A stretch of DNA of 64,000 nucleotides from Escherichia coli (GTDB taxonomy: Bacteria; Pseudomonadota; Gammaproteobacteria; Enterobacterales; Enterobacteriaceae): NCBI RefSeq assembly GCF_046105845.1, contig NZ_CP151004.1, one strand, 5' to 3'. Position numbers: made by a program. Shown here one piece after another: positions 38,301 to 47,300 of this stretch (its first letter is position 1; every line of letters begins with the position of its first letter).

Positions 38301-41300
38301 GGTAATGAATTTGTGACGGTGAAATCGCTGAACGAGCAGGGCCAGCCTGTGGGCGTGGAGATATTTCATTATCGCGACGATCTCTCGCTCGAATCCTACA
38401 TTTTTGCACGCAGTGCCACCATTGAAGACGACAAAACGTGGATCCTGCATGGTGTGAATCATAAAAAATGGTTGAATGGCAAAGAAACGCTGGAAACATC
38501 AGATAATCTTGCCTGGCAATCGGCCTTCACCAGTATGGATCTTGAAGAGTTATCGATGCCGGGGAATACTTTTTCTGTCCGTCAGCTTAATCATTACATC
38601 CATTATTTGCAGGAAACCGGGCAACCCAGCAGCGATTACCGCCTTGCACTGTGGGAAAAACTGGGGCAACCCATCTTAACTCTGGCGATGATTTTGCTGG
38701 CTGTGCCGTTTACCTTTAGTGCCCCGCGTTCGCCTGGGATGGGTAGCCGTCTCGCTGTAGGCGTCATCGTGGGCTTACTCACCTGGATCAGCTATCAAAT
38801 CATGGTCAATCTGGGATTGCTATTTGCGTTGAGCGCACCTGTTACCGCGCTCGGTTTACCGATAGCGTTTGTGCTGGTGGCGTTGAGCCTGGTGTATTGG
38901 TATGACAGTCAACATTAAACCCGCCGTGGCGCAGCACCACAGCGGGCTCACATTACTGCTTCAGAGTAGCAAATGCCTGAATGATGGCATCGATTTGCTC
39001 ACGACTGTGGGCAGCGTTTACGCTACAGCGCAGCAGCGTGATGCCTGCAGGCGCGGCAGGTGGCAGGATAAGATTCACATAAACGCCCAGCGAAATAAGC
39101 TCGCGCCAGATGCGTAAACCTTCCTCTTTCGAACCGATTATTACTGGCACTACCGGGCTAATATGTGAACTTAACTCGTAACCCAGTTTTTGCAGACCGT
39201 CATACAGATGGTTGGCGTTATCCATCAGCTTTTGCCGCAGCTCTGGTTGTGAGGCAATGGTTCTTAACGACGAGCGCACGGTCGCAATGCAGGACGGAGA
39301 AGGAGAGGCGGTAAAAATATACGGGCGGCTGCCGTAGCGCAGCACTTCCATCGCTTCCGAACCGACAGCAAAACCGCCAATCGAGGCCAGACTTTTACTG
39401 AAAGTACCAACGATAATATCCACATCATCTTCAACGCCAACGGCTTCAGCCAGTCCGCGCCCCATTGCGCCTAACACGCCAAACGAATGCGCTTCATCGA
39501 CAATCAAATAACCACCGAGACGACGTTTGATATCAACAATTTCCGCTAACGGCGCAACGTCACCGAGCATGCTGTAGATACCCTCAACGATGATAATCGC
39601 CTCTTTCGCCCGTTCACCGAGGCGAACCATGCGCCGTTCCAGATCTTTAGCATCGTTATGGCGGAAACGAATAATTTCCGCGCCACCGAGAGAACAGGCG
39701 TCATAAATACTGGCGTGGCTGTCGGCATCCAGTAACACCACGGCGTTATGGTCGGCAAGTGCGCTGATGACGCCTAAATTAGCGGTATAACCGGTTGAAA
39801 AAACGATAGCGGTAGGGCGATTAAAAAACTCGGCGATCTCTTTCTCTAACGCCAGATGCGGCGCATAACTGCCGTTTGCCATACGAGAACCGGTGGTGCC
39901 GGTGCCTTGGGCCGCTAACGCTGCCTGACCTTCGGCGATGGCATCATGATTGAAGGTTAATCCGAGATAATTATTGGTCCCGGCCAGAATCACTTTTTTA
40001 TTGCCGATCCGACCTTCGGTGGCGGAATACACTTCATCAATACAGGTACCAAACGGCGTTAACCCGTTGTCACTAAATTGCAGTCGCTCGCCAGCAAGGC
40101 GCGCATATTTATCGTATAGCCCCATTATTTATTCTCCAGCCATGGAAGTAGTGTTTCCATTAATTGCGCAGGGGTTTTGACATCCAGCAGAATATTAATA
40201 GGAATGGAAATATCGAATCTGTCTTCCAGCATCATTAAGAGATCCATCACTTTGATCGACTCCAGGCCAAGATCGTTGACGAGATCGCTGTCGGGCTTAA
40301 TTTCCACACCGTTTTCGACCAAATCCTGTAAACAGGAAAGGATGTAATCCATTACTATTTCACGATTTACCATAGAAACGTTAACACACCTTTAAACAAG
40401 ACAATCAAAATAGCCCGTTGCGTAATGCGTGTTCCAGGCTAATCCCGGGAAACCAATTAATATCTTCAGAAATACGGTTATTACTTGCCGACCAGTCGGC
40501 ATGAGTTAATTCACGGATTTTCGAACGAGTCAGCATCGGTTCTTTACCCGCCAGACGGCTCAACGCGGTACTGATATCCGCAAGGCAGGTGAGTAGCGAC
40601 AGAGGAATACCGACCATCCGCACGGAACCACAACGGGCGTCGGCGGCAAGCTGTCTTACGCGTTGCCAGTCATAGCCGCCGGCGACGCCATCGCATAATT
40701 CATAGGTTTGCGTCTGTACAGTTTCGGCGCTTAACCACTGCCCCACGGCTTGCGCGAAATCGGTGACGTGCAGGAAAGAGAGCTGTGTCTCTGGCGCACC
40801 AAGTCGTGGCAGCAGGCCGCGCAGCATCCAGTCAAACAGCGGTTTTAACTCTTTATCGCCGGGACCATACACGGCTGTCGGGCGAAAAACGCCCAGCGTA
40901 ATTTCATCAGCCATTGCAGTCAGCCGTTGTTCGGCGACGTGTTTGGAATTTGCGTACCAGGAGAGTTCGGGATGGCGCGCCGCCAGCGAAGAGATAAACA
41001 GAAAACGTTGGCAAAAGCCGCTCTCTTTTGCCGCTTGCATCAGTCGCAGGCTGCCGTCAACGTTACAGCGGGTAAAAATCTCTTCTTTGTGCCCGCGCAC
41101 TTGCCCGGCGCAATGGACCACCGCGCTGGCTCCGGCAACCAGTTCGCTAAGTGAATGAGTATCTTCCAGAGAACCGCGCACCCAGATGAGATTGTCATTG
41201 ACGTGAGCGCGGGCAGTACGCGTCAATGTGCGAACGTGAAAGCCGCGGGCGAGCAGGTTATCGATAATATATTTACCGATAAACCCGGTAGCGCCCGTCA

Positions 41301-44300: not shown

Positions 44301-47300
44301 TAAAAGTCAGCGGTGTGCGTACTGCGCGAGTACCGCTGATGGGCGTGCGGGACGAGTATCAGTTTAGCCGCATCGGCCCGGTGATTGCGCTGTTATTGAT
44401 TGAAGCCTTACGCGATCCGTTTGCCCGCCGGAAGATCGATGCGCTGGAAATGTCATGGATCCTCGAAACCAATACAGGCATGAATAACATGCTGGAACGC
44501 ATTGGGGCAGAGCCGTACAAGCGTTACCGATTGTATGAAAAGCAGATTTGATGGCAGTCACCCCTGCTTCATCTCCAGCGGCACCGCCGAGCGAATCAAA
44601 TGGTGGCCTTCCAGCTCGATATCGTGGAGATTCTTTTTCACGGTCCGCACATGATCGCGTGCTGCGCGCTGGGCGACGTGCGGCAGCCGCTGCAACACCG
44701 CGTTGTAGATCCGCGCATGCTGGCGATCGATCTGCTTTTTTTGCTGTGGTCGATGGTAGAGATTATTTACGCTGGCAAACACTGAATTAAACATCAGATC
44801 GGTCAATGATTGCAGCGTAAACACCAACACCTGATTGTGAGAAGCCTGACAAATGGCGAGATGGAAAGCGTGATCCAACTGCGCATGTTCGATCAGCGAA
44901 ATCTCTTTGTTGTTCTCACTGGCGGCGAGCATTTTTTCATAACAGCGGGTTATCACAACAAAATCAGCCTGGGTTCCCAGCGTTGCCGCAAGCCTTGCCG
45001 ATTCCCCCTCCAGCAATGCGCGAACGTCGAGCAGATCGTACAGCGTTCGCGGCTGCGTGCTGAACAGATGAATTAGCGGGCTGGTATCCTGCACCCGATT
45101 AAGCCGTGCGACACGAGAATCGCGACCCTGCGCTGTTTCAATAATCCCGCGCCCGCGCAGCACGGTCAGCCCTTCACGCAGTGCGGAGCGTGAGAAGCCG
45201 AGCTTTTCACACAGTCGACGTTCCGAGGGAAGCGGCTGACCGACCTTCAGTACGCCGTCGATAATTAACCGTTCGATACTCTCTGCAACCACTTCGCAAA
45301 TAGGGCGACGTTCATCTTTCATTCCCGGACCTCGTGCACAGGTAGGACCAATTTTTCTGTTCTTAACTCGCAAAACACGCACATCACGTAAGTGATTATG
45401 TTACATCAATTTAACATTAAGTTAACCAAGGCAAGGTCACAGAGCTGGAAAAAAAATGGTCTGACCGGTAGCTAAAGAGATAGACGAAAACGAAAAGCCC
45501 GCTTAATAACTGTTCACAGAAGCAGCGCGCAAAAATCAGCTGCCACACAACACAACAAAGCGAAGCCTACTCATGAGCATCTTGTACGAAGAGCGTCTTG
45601 ATGGCGCTTTACCCGATGTCGACCGCACATCGGTACTGATGGCACTGCGTGAGCATGTCCCTGGACTTGAGATCCTGCATACCGATGAGGAGATCATTCC
45701 TTACGAGTGTGACGGGTTGAGCGCGTATCGCACGCGTCCATTACTGGTTGTTCTGCCTAAGCAAATGGAACAGGTGACAGCGATTCTGGCTGTTTGTCAC
45801 CGCCTGCGTGTATCGGTGGTGACCCGTGGTGCAGGCACCGGGCTTTCTGGTGGCGCGCTGCCGCTGGAAAAAGGTGTGTTGTTGGTGATGGCGCGCTTTA
45901 AAGAGATCCTCGACATTAACCCCGTTGGTCGCCGCGCGCGCGTGCAGCCGGGCGTGCGTAACCTGGCGATCTCCCAGGCCGTTGCGCCGCATAATCTCTA
46001 TTACGCGCCGGATCCTTCCTCACAAATCGCCTGTTCAATTGGCGGCAATGTGGCGGAAAATGCCGGTGGCGTCCACTGCCTGAAATATGGTCTGACCGTA
46101 CATAACTTGCTGAAAATTGAAGTGCAAACGCTGGACGGCGAGGCGCTGACGCTGGGATCGGACGCGCTGGATTCGCCTGGTTTTGACCTGCTGGCGCTGT
46201 TCACCGGATCGGAAGGTATGCTCGGCGTGACCACCGAAGTAACGGTGAAGCTGTTGCCGAAGCCGCCCGTGGCGCGGGTTCTGTTAGCCAGCTTTGACTC
46301 GGTAGAAAAAGCCGGACTTGCAGTTGGTGACATCATCGCCAATGGCATTATCCCCGGCGGGCTGGAGATGATGGATAACCTGTCGATCCGCGCAGCGGAA
46401 GATTTTATACATGCCGGTTATCCCGTCGACGCCGAAGCGATTTTGTTATGCGAGCTGGACGGCGTGGAGTCTGACGTACAGGAAGACTGCGAGCGGGTTA
46501 ACGACATCTTGTTGAAAGCGGGCGCGACTGACGTCCGTCTGGCACAGGACGAAGCAGAGCGCGTACGTTTCTGGGCCGGTCGCAAAAATGCGTTCCCTGC
46601 GGTAGGACGAATCTCCCCGGATTACTACTGCATGGATGGCACCATCCCGCGCCGCGCACTGCCTGGCGTACTGGAAGGCATTGCCCGTTTATCGCAGCAA
46701 TATGATTTACGCGTTGCCAACGTCTTTCATGCCGGAGACGGCAACATGCACCCGTTAATCCTTTTCGATGCCAACGAACCCGGTGAATTTGCCCGCGCGG
46801 AAGAGCTGGGCGGGAAGATCCTCGAACTCTGCGTTGAAGTTGGCGGCAGCATCAGTGGGGAACATGGCATCGGGCGCGAAAAAATCAATCAAATGTGCGC
46901 CCAGTTCAACAGCGATGAAATCACTACTTTTCATGCGGTCAAGGCGGCGTTTGATCCCGATGGTTTGTTGAACCCAGGAAAAAACATTCCCACGCTACAC
47001 CGCTGTGCTGAATTTGGTGCCATGCATGTGCATCACGGTCATTTACCTTTCCCTGAACTGGAGCGTTTCTGATGCTACGCGAGTGTGATTACAGCCAGGC
47101 GCTGCTGGAGCAGGTGAATCAGGCGATTAGCGATAAAACGCCGCTGGTGATTCAGGGCAGCAATAGCAAAGCCTTTTTAGGTCGTCCTGTCACCGGGCAA
47201 ACGCTGGATGTGCGTTGTCATCGCGGCATTGTTAATTACGACCCGACCGAGCTGGTGATAACCGCGCGTGCCGGAACGCCGCTGGTGGCGATTGAAGCGG

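What the first reader, a model, noticed from the sequence alone, without database searches (positions are those of the whole stretch)
38953..44551. Candidate ceramide/sphingolipid-like amino-lipid biosynthesis operon with the yghO acyltransferase
Seen in sequence: four translationally coupled minus-strand genes (acyl-AMP ligase with YTSGSTRFPRGV, Rossmann reductase GATGFIGKYI, ACP with DLGLESI, alpha-oxoamine synthase with PLP-lysine GTFSKSL), divergent from the 380-aa yghO gene. Established knowledge: bacterial ceramide synthesis (Caulobacter, Stankeviciute et al. 2022 as I recall) uses serine palmitoyltransferase + dedicated ACP + acyl-ACP synthetase + epimerase-family reductase (CerR) + GNAT-type N-acyltransferase (bCerS), with spt-acp-cerR-synthetase adjacent. 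Inference: this block is an equivalent toolkit for a sphingoid or other N-acyl amino lipid not known from E. coli K-12. Synthases of this family also make biotin precursors, 2-amino-3-ketobutyrate and CAI-1-type autoinducers, so the product is open.
Basis: partly seen in the sequence, partly recalled or inferred. Interest (0 to 1): 0.9.

Follow-up and report, generated by a model that had tools for sequence, protein, structure and literature searches.

The report
E. coli sphingolipid (ceramide) gene cluster
This is the known ceramide (sphingolipid) synthesis locus that most E. coli strains carry and K-12 has lost.

Summary
Four intact minus-strand genes run in the order fatty acyl-AMP ligase, epimerase-family reductase, acyl carrier protein (ACP) and alpha-oxoamine synthase, divergent from yghO, and all quoted motifs are present.

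It is not new:
- RefSeq already labels the gene "spt" in 4,067 of 5,426 complete E. coli genomes.
- Padilla-Gomez et al. 2022 (PMC9386255) characterised the BL21(DE3) orthologues AasR, AcpR and SPT. These are 97.5, 100 and 99.0% identical to the window proteins. [quoted passage not shown]
- The same paper lists ECD_02852 and YghO as orthologues of Caulobacter Epi (CerR) and Aca (bCerS).
- A 2026 preprint draws the E. coli UTI89 sphingolipid operons alongside Caulobacter and S. wittichii loci that carry LptF/LptG paralogues.

K-12 lost 8.4 kb of the locus through an IS5-linked deletion.

Still open are the native product, its head group and when it is expressed. I also found that yghT, yghS, yghR, yghQ, a 274-aa orphan gene and a ytfJ-like gene stay linked to the ceramide genes across about 26 Enterobacterales species despite rearrangements.

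The parts
38953..40125 (-). spt: serine palmitoyltransferase (PLP-dependent alpha-oxoamine synthase)
   Evidence: NF047599 equivalog scores 598.7 bits against a 500 cut-off. Best PDB relatives are the S. wittichii and S. paucimobilis SPTs at 375 bits, and the SHASIYD, VDEAHS and GTFSKS motifs align with them. It is 99.0% identical to BL21(DE3) SPT, which was assayed in PMC9386255.
40125..40373 (-). acpR: dedicated acyl carrier protein
   Evidence: It is 100% identical to BL21(DE3) ECD_02853, which was shown to carry 4'-phosphopantetheine. ACP models hit below their cut-offs. The Serratia orthologue carries PF00550. Its stop overlaps the spt start as TAATG.
40405..41319 (-). cerR/epi: NAD(P)-dependent epimerase-family reductase (3-keto reduction)
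   Evidence: Pfam Epimerase, E = 1e-22. It is 96.1% identical to ECD_02852, which the literature reports as 34% identical to Caulobacter CC_1164. Its start overlaps the ligase stop as ATGA.
41316..43037 (-). aasR: fatty acyl-AMP ligase acting as an acyl-AcpR synthetase
   Evidence: NF006624 scores 869 bits against a 600 cut-off. Pfam AMP-binding, E = 4e-56. [quoted passage not shown] The start codon is uncertain (43037 or 43004).
43038..43408 (.). 371-bp AT-rich divergent intergenic region, presumed to hold the promoters of the operon and of yghO
   Evidence: GC is 0.31 in 43000-43499, against about 0.52 in the flanks. Sequence read. The sigma-70 consensus scan was not above chance. K-12 has deleted this region.
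43409..44551 (+). yghO: tandem-GNAT N-acyltransferase, orthologue of the bacterial ceramide synthase (bCerS/Aca)
36772..37842 (+). lptF2: LptF paralogue, candidate sphingolipid extractor subunit
   Evidence: TIGR04407 scores 317 bits. The Caulobacter LptF2/G2 role is described in bioRxiv 10.64898/2026.04.12.717747. It is linked to spt in 29 of 34 loci.
37839..38918 (+). lptG2: LptG paralogue
   Evidence: TIGR04408 scores 306.5 bits. It overlaps lptF2 by 4 nt and converges on spt with a 34-bp gap.
33996..35345 (+). yghQ: MOP-family flippase candidate (full length here, truncated in K-12)
   Evidence: Weak MOP flippase hit. The Serratia orthologue carries Pfam Polysacc_synt. A 32%-identical gene lies directly upstream of the ligase in a Caulobacteraceae MAG, at the position of CC_1166.
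35345..36169 (+). 274-aa protein of unknown function that travels with the locus in Enterobacterales
   Evidence: No Pfam, NCBIfam or PDB match. It is present in all complete Enterobacterales loci. dN/dS is 0.11 against BL21.
36178..36741 (+). YtfJ-family periplasmic protein with a signal peptide
   Evidence: TIGR01626 scores 215 bits. It is linked to spt in Enterobacterales.
31581..33950 (.). yghT (-), yghS (+) and yghR (+): three paralogous P-loop proteins with a dTMP-kinase fold, linked to the locus

Best explanation
This is the E. coli copy of the proteobacterial dihydroceramide (sphingolipid) pathway.

Proposed mechanism:
1. The acyl-AMP ligase (AasR) adenylates a free long-chain fatty acid and loads it onto the dedicated carrier protein AcpR.
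2. Spt condenses acyl-AcpR with L-serine, with loss of CO2, to give 3-oxo-sphinganine. Steps 1 and 2 are shown experimentally in the literature, step 2 for the near-identical BL21(DE3) proteins and the direct acylation assay of step 1 for the Caulobacter AasR.
3. The tandem-GNAT enzyme YghO (bCerS/Aca) adds the N-acyl chain and the epimerase-family reductase (CerR/Epi) reduces the 3-keto group, giving dihydroceramide. This step is inferred from orthology to Caulobacter, and the order of the two reactions is disputed in the literature.
4. The convergent lptF2-lptG2 pair, probably powered by the housekeeping LptB, and possibly the flippase-like YghQ, move the lipid towards the outer membrane. 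This step is inferred from Caulobacter work.

The final E. coli lipid, its head group and the conditions of expression are not established.
For: - Family assignments: SPT equivalog and acyl-AMP ligase models score above their curated cut-offs. Sphingomonas SPTs are the best solved relatives. The reductase matches Pfam Epimerase.
- YghO has a tandem GNAT fold.
- Window proteins are 96-100% identical to BL21(DE3) ECD_02850 to ECD_02854.
- In PMC9386255, AcpR from E. coli carries 4'-phosphopantetheine. [quoted passage not shown] SPT from E. coli prefers acyl-AcpR over acyl-CoA.
- The same paper lists YghO and ECD_02852 as orthologues of CC_1154 (44% identity) and CC_1164 (34% identity).
- LptF2/G2 are needed when sphingolipid is made in Caulobacter, and the E. 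coli UTI89 operons are drawn in the same figure.
- All 13 locus genes are under purifying selection. dN/dS is 0.00-0.11 against BL21 for the 12 genes compared in full.
- The genes stay linked through at least three gene orders in about 26 Enterobacterales species.
- Distant YghO homologues (44-49% identity) sit in loci with lptFG pairs and Caulobacter-type head-group genes. Two of the three loci also hold an spt-like or an acyl-AMP ligase plus reductase gene.
Against: - No native E. coli sphingolipid turned up in the literature I could search.
- In PMC9386255 the empty-vector BL21(DE3) control carries the chromosomal locus but shows no 3-oxo-sphinganine spot on TLC, so the locus appears silent in rich medium.
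- YghO and the reductase from E. coli have not been assayed.
- YghO itself matches no Pfam or NCBIfam model.
- The Enterobacterales loci lack the ceramide-phosphoglycerate head-group genes seen next to distant homologues. The end product may therefore differ from the Caulobacter lipids.
Confidence: 0.88

Rival explanations
1. The locus is a silent evolutionary relic that makes no lipid in E. coli under any natural condition.
For: The BL21(DE3) empty-vector control shows no 3-oxo-sphinganine band. No report of a native E. coli sphingolipid was found. K-12 lives without the locus. The intergenic promoter region is AT-rich, and its promoter-like matches are no more than chance would give.
Against: All 13 ORFs are intact. 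dN/dS is 0.00-0.11 within E. coli and at most 0.17 against Citrobacter. 4,067 of 5,426 complete genomes keep at least 80% of the block. The gene set is retained through rearrangements in more than ten genera. Silence in rich medium is common for conditionally expressed envelope loci.
Confidence: 0.07
2. The synthase makes a different alpha-oxoamine product, such as a biotin precursor, 2-amino-3-ketobutyrate, a CAI-1-type autoinducer or a 1-deoxy base from alanine or glycine, so the product is not a sphingolipid.
For: The enzyme family is promiscuous. Weaker hits to BioF, Kbl and CqsA models exist. Abstracts returned by the literature search note that SPTs also accept Ala and Gly, at much lower efficiency.
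Against: BioF, Kbl and CqsA scores are all below their cut-offs, while the SPT equivalog is above its own. PDB ranking puts SPTs at 375 bits against 125-200 for the others. [quoted passage not shown]
Confidence: 0.03
3. YghO is unrelated to the operon and acts as a protein acetyltransferase or regulator, as its older annotation as a DNA-binding protein suggests.
For: Some databases name homologues 'DNA-binding protein'. It was included as a GNAT candidate in a lysine-acetyltransferase screen. It is on the opposite strand and survives alone in K-12.
Against: It has a tandem GNAT fold. The literature reports 44% identity over 98% coverage to the Caulobacter ceramide N-acyltransferase CC_1154. 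It is adjacent to the spt operon in 30 of 34 loci, including Pseudomonas and a Caulobacteraceae MAG. In K-12 it has lost its promoter region and its first 40 nt to the IS5 deletion.
Confidence: 0.02

Closest known systems
E. coli BL21(DE3) ECD_02850 to ECD_02854 (yghO/aca, aasR, epi, acpR, spt), Padilla-Gomez et al. 2022, PMC9386255
   Same: It is the same locus, with the same gene order and the same neighbours. Proteins are 96.1-100% identical.
   Different: Only allelic differences, with nucleotide identity around 97-98%. The window strain is somewhat divergent from sequenced genomes: only 3 of 4,591 matching records reach 99% identity.
Caulobacter crescentus sphingolipid locus CC_1152 to CC_1168 (spt, acpR, cerR/epi, aasR, bcerS/aca, lptF2, lptG2, lptC2, flippase candidate CC_1166, cpg head-group genes)
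   Same: It shares the five ceramide genes, the lptF2/lptG2 pair and a MOP-type flippase candidate. In both, the ACP gene lies immediately upstream of spt.
   Different: E. coli has no lptC2 and no ceramide kinase (DAGK_cat), NTP-transferase, Tam41-like or CDP-alcohol transferase head-group genes. It carries yghR/S/T, a 274-aa orphan gene and a ytfJ-like gene instead. Native lipids are demonstrated in Caulobacter but not in E. coli.
Sphingomonas wittichii and S. paucimobilis serine palmitoyltransferase (PDB 2x8u, 2jg2)
   Same: These are the best solved relatives, at 375 bits. The PLP-lysine and catalytic His and Asp motifs are conserved.
   Different: In Sphingomonas the aasR gene lies far from acpR-spt. 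Sphingomonas also lacks LPS.
BioF, Kbl and CqsA alpha-oxoamine synthases
   Same: They share the same PLP fold type and reaction chemistry.
   Different: Their family models all score below cut-off, and they sit in a different genomic context.

Membership tests
Proteobacterial serine palmitoyltransferase (NCBIfam NF047599) | Whole-protein score at or above the curated equivalog cut-off, and above the scores for sister families | tested here: met
   598.7 bits against a 500 cut-off. BioF scores 334 (below 426), Kbl 297 (below 460) and CqsA 221 (below 428).
Proteobacterial serine palmitoyltransferase (NCBIfam NF047599) | PLP-binding lysine and catalytic His/Asp motifs aligned with solved SPTs | tested here: met
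   SHASIYD, VDEAHS, GTFSKS and LLRCS align with S. wittichii SPT 2x8u.
Proteobacterial serine palmitoyltransferase (NCBIfam NF047599) | Condenses L-serine with a long-chain acyl thioester to give 3-oxo-sphinganine | not testable with these tools
   Reported for the 99.0%-identical BL21(DE3) enzyme in PMC9386255.
AcpR (sphingolipid-dedicated ACP) | Small ACP encoded immediately upstream of spt, with a phosphopantetheine-attachment serine | tested here: met
   The 82-aa protein contains DLGLESI and its stop overlaps the spt start. It is 100% identical to ECD_02853, which was shown to incorporate beta-alanine. General ACP models hit only below their cut-offs.
AasR (acyl-AcpR synthetase, fatty acyl-AMP ligase subfamily NF006624) | Score above the subfamily cut-off, an AMP-binding domain, and linkage to acpR-spt | tested here: met
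   869 bits against a 600 cut-off. PF00501, E = 4e-56. Same operon as acpR and spt. 97.5% identical to ECD_02851.
CerR/Epi (bacterial ceramide reductase) | NAD(P)-binding epimerase/dehydratase-family protein encoded in the spt operon and orthologous to CC_1164 | tested here: met
   PF01370, E = 1e-22, with a GATGFIG motif. The literature reports 34% identity to CC_1164. My own tblastn gives 34% to the Caulobacteraceae MAG gene in the same position.
CerR/Epi (bacterial ceramide reductase) | Reduces the 3-keto group of 3-oxo-sphinganine or oxo-ceramide | not testable with these tools
   No assay of the E. coli protein was found in the literature searched.
bCerS/Aca (bacterial ceramide synthase) | GNAT-type acyltransferase fold | tested here: met
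bCerS/Aca (bacterial ceramide synthase) | Orthology to Caulobacter CC_1154 and linkage to spt genes | tested here: met
   The literature reports 44% identity, E = 1e-107 and 98% coverage. It is 41% identical to the gene in a Caulobacteraceae spt locus, and it is adjacent to the operon in 30 of 34 loci.
bCerS/Aca (bacterial ceramide synthase) | N-acylates a sphingoid base | not testable with these tools
   No assay of E. coli YghO was found.
LptF2/LptG2 sphingolipid transporter | A second LptF/LptG pair encoded in the sphingolipid locus | tested here: met
   TIGR04407 scores 317 bits and TIGR04408 scores 306.5 bits. The pair is adjacent to and convergent with spt, and is linked to it in 29 of 34 loci.
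LptF2/LptG2 sphingolipid transporter | Required for viability only when sphingolipid is made; binds LptB | not testable with these tools
   Shown only for Caulobacter, in a preprint.

The most novel reading that the evidence does not exclude
In Enterobacterales the five ceramide genes are the core of a 13-gene module. The module also holds three dTMP-kinase-fold P-loop paralogues (YghR/S/T), the flippase-like YghQ, a 274-aa orphan protein, a YtfJ-like periplasmic protein and LptF2/G2. It replaces the Caulobacter-type phosphoglycerate head-group genes. On this reading it makes and exports a ceramide derivative with a head group not yet described, under conditions not sampled in laboratory culture. 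The K-12 genes yghQ' (the truncated copy), yghR, yghS, yghT and yghO would then be orphaned remnants of this system.
Probability: 0.35. Interest if true: 0.6.

Novelty: already known. Interest (0 to 1): 0.25.

Why it matters
E. coli is the reference organism for bacterial lipid biology and is usually described as having no sphingolipids. That picture comes largely from K-12, which has deleted this locus, while about three quarters of complete E. coli genomes carry it intact and under purifying selection.

The gene assignments are already in the literature and in RefSeq, so nothing here is a discovery. The practical value is in pointing at what is still missing. That is the native lipid and its head group, the inducing condition, and the role of the conserved accessory genes yghQ, yghR, yghS, yghT, the 274-aa gene and the ytfJ-like gene.

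Tried and rejected
- Stankeviciute et al. 2022 (PMC8891067) is not held in the library. The bCerS/CerR nomenclature and the disputed reaction order are therefore taken from papers that cite it.
- Literature searches for a native E. coli sphingolipid found none. The library lacks most subscription journals, so this is weak negative evidence.
- The sigma-70 promoter and terminator scan of 38800-44700 was not above shuffled expectation (9 found against 6.9 +/- 3.0 expected). I assign no promoter.
- I tested whether YghR/S/T might be the ceramide kinase. The characterised bacterial ceramide kinase CpgB is a DAG-kinase-type enzyme with a GGDG motif and is unrelated to these P-loop proteins. Their model only shows a generic nucleotide-kinase fold, so the substrate stays unknown.
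- Pfam and PDB searches of the 274-aa protein found nothing.
- The BioF, Kbl and CqsA assignments were considered and rejected on curated cut-offs.

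
Full report
**Observation.**
- spt, 38953-40125 (-), 390 aa.
- An 82-aa ACP, 40125-40373 (-).
- A 304-aa Rossmann-fold reductase, 40405-41319 (-).
- An acyl-AMP ligase from 41316 (-).
- yghO, 43409-44551 (+), on the other side of a 371-bp AT-rich spacer (GC 0.31).

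Reading the junctions directly shows the following.
- The ligase stop and the reductase start overlap as ATGA.
- The ACP stop and the spt start overlap as TAATG.
- The reductase and the ACP are 31 nt apart.

All four quoted motifs are present. The mechanical ORF list over-extends the reductase (GTG 41529) and the ligase (TTG 43064). RefSeq annotations of near-identical genomes use ATG 41319 for the reductase and differ among themselves on the ligase start.

**What the proteins are.** The synthase meets NCBI's curated equivalog model for serine palmitoyltransferase (NF047599), at 598.7 bits against a 500 cut-off.
- It falls below the cut-offs for BioF, Kbl, CqsA and ALA synthase.
- Against solved structures, the Sphingomonas SPTs score 375 bits, Sphingobacterium SPT 265, Kbl about 200, BioF about 180 and CqsA 125. 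The PLP-lysine and His/Asp motifs align.

- The ligase meets the fatty acyl-AMP ligase subfamily model at 869 bits against 600.
- The reductase is an Epimerase-family protein.

YghO matches no Pfam or NCBIfam model, but the evidence for an acyltransferase fold is strong.
- Its family is large, with 1,114 representatives of 50%-identity clusters at E < 1e-30.
- 8 of 84 family members reach the GNAT model at E <= 1e-3.

**It is already known.**
- A megablast against 5,426 complete E. coli genomes finds at least 80% of the block in 4,067 of them. RefSeq already labels the genes "spt: serine palmitoyltransferase", "acyl carrier protein", "NAD-dependent epimerase/dehydratase family protein", "fatty acyl-AMP ligase" and "protein YghO".
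- Padilla-Gomez et al. 2022 (PMC9386255) worked on this locus in BL21(DE3).
  - ECD_02853 (AcpR) carries 4'-phosphopantetheine.
  - The SPT prefers acyl-AcpR over acyl-CoA.
  - ECD_02852 and yghO/ECD_02850 are listed as the orthologues of Caulobacter Epi (CC_1164; 34% identity) and Aca (CC_1154; 44% identity, E = 1e-107).
  - The authors note that the five genes are clustered only in C. crescentus and E. coli BL21 among the genomes they compared.
- I fetched the BL21(DE3) locus. The window proteins are 99.0% (SPT), 100% (AcpR), 96.1% (reductase), 97.5% (ligase) and 99.5% (YghO) identical to it, with no internal stops.
- A 2026 preprint (bioRxiv 10.64898/2026.04.12.717747) shows that LptF/LptG paralogues in the Caulobacter sphingolipid locus are needed when sphingolipid is made and that they bind LptB. 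Its Figure 2B draws the sphingolipid operons of E. coli UTI89.

**Surroundings.** Convergent on spt lie an LptF paralogue (36772-37842) and an LptG paralogue (37839-38918). Upstream of these are a YtfJ-family periplasmic protein, a 274-aa protein with no detectable family, and a full-length yghQ (MOP flippase-like). Beyond that come yghR, yghS and yghT.

K-12 (DH5a) aligns to window 27261-35064 and 43449-53549, with an IS5 in between. K-12 has therefore lost 8,384 bp. The deletion covers:
- the 3' end of yghQ;
- the 274-aa gene and the ytfJ-like gene;
- lptF2 and lptG2;
- the whole spt operon;
- the divergent promoter region;
- the first 40 nt of the yghO ORF.

This explains why the pathway is "not known from K-12".

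**Conservation.** A scan of one genome per species with the window Spt returned 34 orthologous loci. A tblastn of 13 window proteins against them gave these results.
- All 13 genes lie within 10 kb of spt in about 26 Enterobacterales species. These are Escherichia spp., Citrobacter amalonaticus and C. youngae, Pseudocitrobacter, Hafnia, Sodalis, Serratia, Mangrovibacter, Pluralibacter, Pantoea and Rosenbergiella.
- The genes occur in at least three different gene orders.
- Several Pseudomonas loci keep the operon, yghO, lptF2G2 and two or three YghR/S/T-like genes.
- Stutzerimonas keeps the operon, yghO and lptF2G2.
- A Caulobacteraceae MAG has a YghQ-like gene (32% identity) directly upstream of the ligase, at the position of CC_1166. 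PMC11324152 calls CC_1166 a potential flippase.

Two further results bear on function.
- dN/dS against BL21 is 0.00-0.11 for the 12 genes compared in full, and at most 0.17 against Citrobacter, where synonymous sites are saturated. This argues against a decaying relic.
- Distant YghO homologues (44-49% identity) from alpha- and deltaproteobacterial assemblies sit beside lptFG pairs and Caulobacter-type head-group genes (DAGK_cat, NTP_transf_3, Tam41-like, CDP-OH_P_transf, Metallophos). Two of the three loci also hold an spt-like gene or an acyl-AMP ligase plus reductase. The Enterobacterales loci lack these head-group genes.

**Mechanism.**
1. AasR adenylates a fatty acid and loads it onto AcpR.
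2. Spt condenses acyl-AcpR with L-serine to give 3-oxo-sphinganine.
3. YghO N-acylates, and the reductase reduces the 3-keto group, giving dihydroceramide.
4. YghQ and/or LptF2G2-LptB move the lipid to the outer membrane.

Steps 1 and 2 are shown in the literature. For step 2 the evidence is on BL21(DE3) proteins 97.5-100% identical to those encoded here. Step 3 is inferred by orthology, and record the disagreement about the order of the two reactions. Step 4 is inferred from Caulobacter.

What E. coli finally makes is unknown. The empty-vector BL21(DE3) control shows no 3-oxo-sphinganine spot, and I found no report of a native E. coli sphingolipid. The library searched is incomplete, so this negative result is weak.

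**Verdict.** Interest is low for the finding as stated. A moderate open question remains about the native product, its head group and its regulation.

Noticed in passing
window 35065-43448: K-12 (DH5a) lacks exactly this 8,384-bp stretch and has an IS5 in its place. The deletion truncates yghQ and removes the 274-aa gene, the ytfJ-like gene, lptF2, lptG2, the spt operon, the promoter region and the first 40 nt of yghO.
   Followed up: yes
window 31581-38918; loci L010-L043: yghT, yghS, yghR, yghQ, the 274-aa gene, the ytfJ-like gene, lptF2 and lptG2 stay within 10 kb of spt in about 26 Enterobacterales species, in at least three gene orders. This suggests a 13-gene functional module.
   Followed up: partly
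window 31581-33950; L031, L034, L037, L038: YghR/S/T are three paralogous P-loop proteins with a thymidylate-kinase fold. Two or three such genes also flank the spt operon in Pseudomonas spp. Their substrate is unknown.
   Followed up: partly
window 35345-36169: A 274-aa protein with no Pfam, NCBIfam or PDB relative is conserved (dN/dS 0.11) and always present in the Enterobacterales loci.
   Followed up: partly
window 43038-43408: The 371-bp divergent intergenic region has about 31% GC in a genome at about 52% GC, and has no promoter match above chance. It is a candidate silenced regulatory region.
   Followed up: no
window 41316-43064: RefSeq records disagree on the acyl-AMP ligase start: 562 aa in BL21(DE3) and 574 aa in strain GIMC1405. 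In the window, ATG 43037 (573 aa) has the better upstream purine-rich stretch.
   Followed up: partly
window 43409-44551: YghO belongs to a large family (1,114 cluster representatives at E < 1e-30) that has no Pfam or NCBIfam model of its own. Annotation pipelines therefore name it only 'protein YghO' or 'N-acetyltransferase', although it is published as the ceramide synthase orthologue.
   Followed up: yes
L029 (Serratia sp. M24T3, second contig): This strain has a second acp-spt pair (Spt 79% identical) with none of the other locus genes nearby, in addition to its complete locus on L019.
   Followed up: no
L004-L006 (Serratia liquefaciens): A small DAGK_prokar (DgkA-type lipid kinase) gene lies immediately downstream of yghO. 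E. coli has glcC at that position.
   Followed up: no
window 38953-44551 against E. coli genomes: Only 3 of 4,591 matching records reach 99% identity, and the best full-length match is 98.9%. The window therefore comes from a lineage that is sparsely represented among complete E. coli genomes.
   Followed up: no
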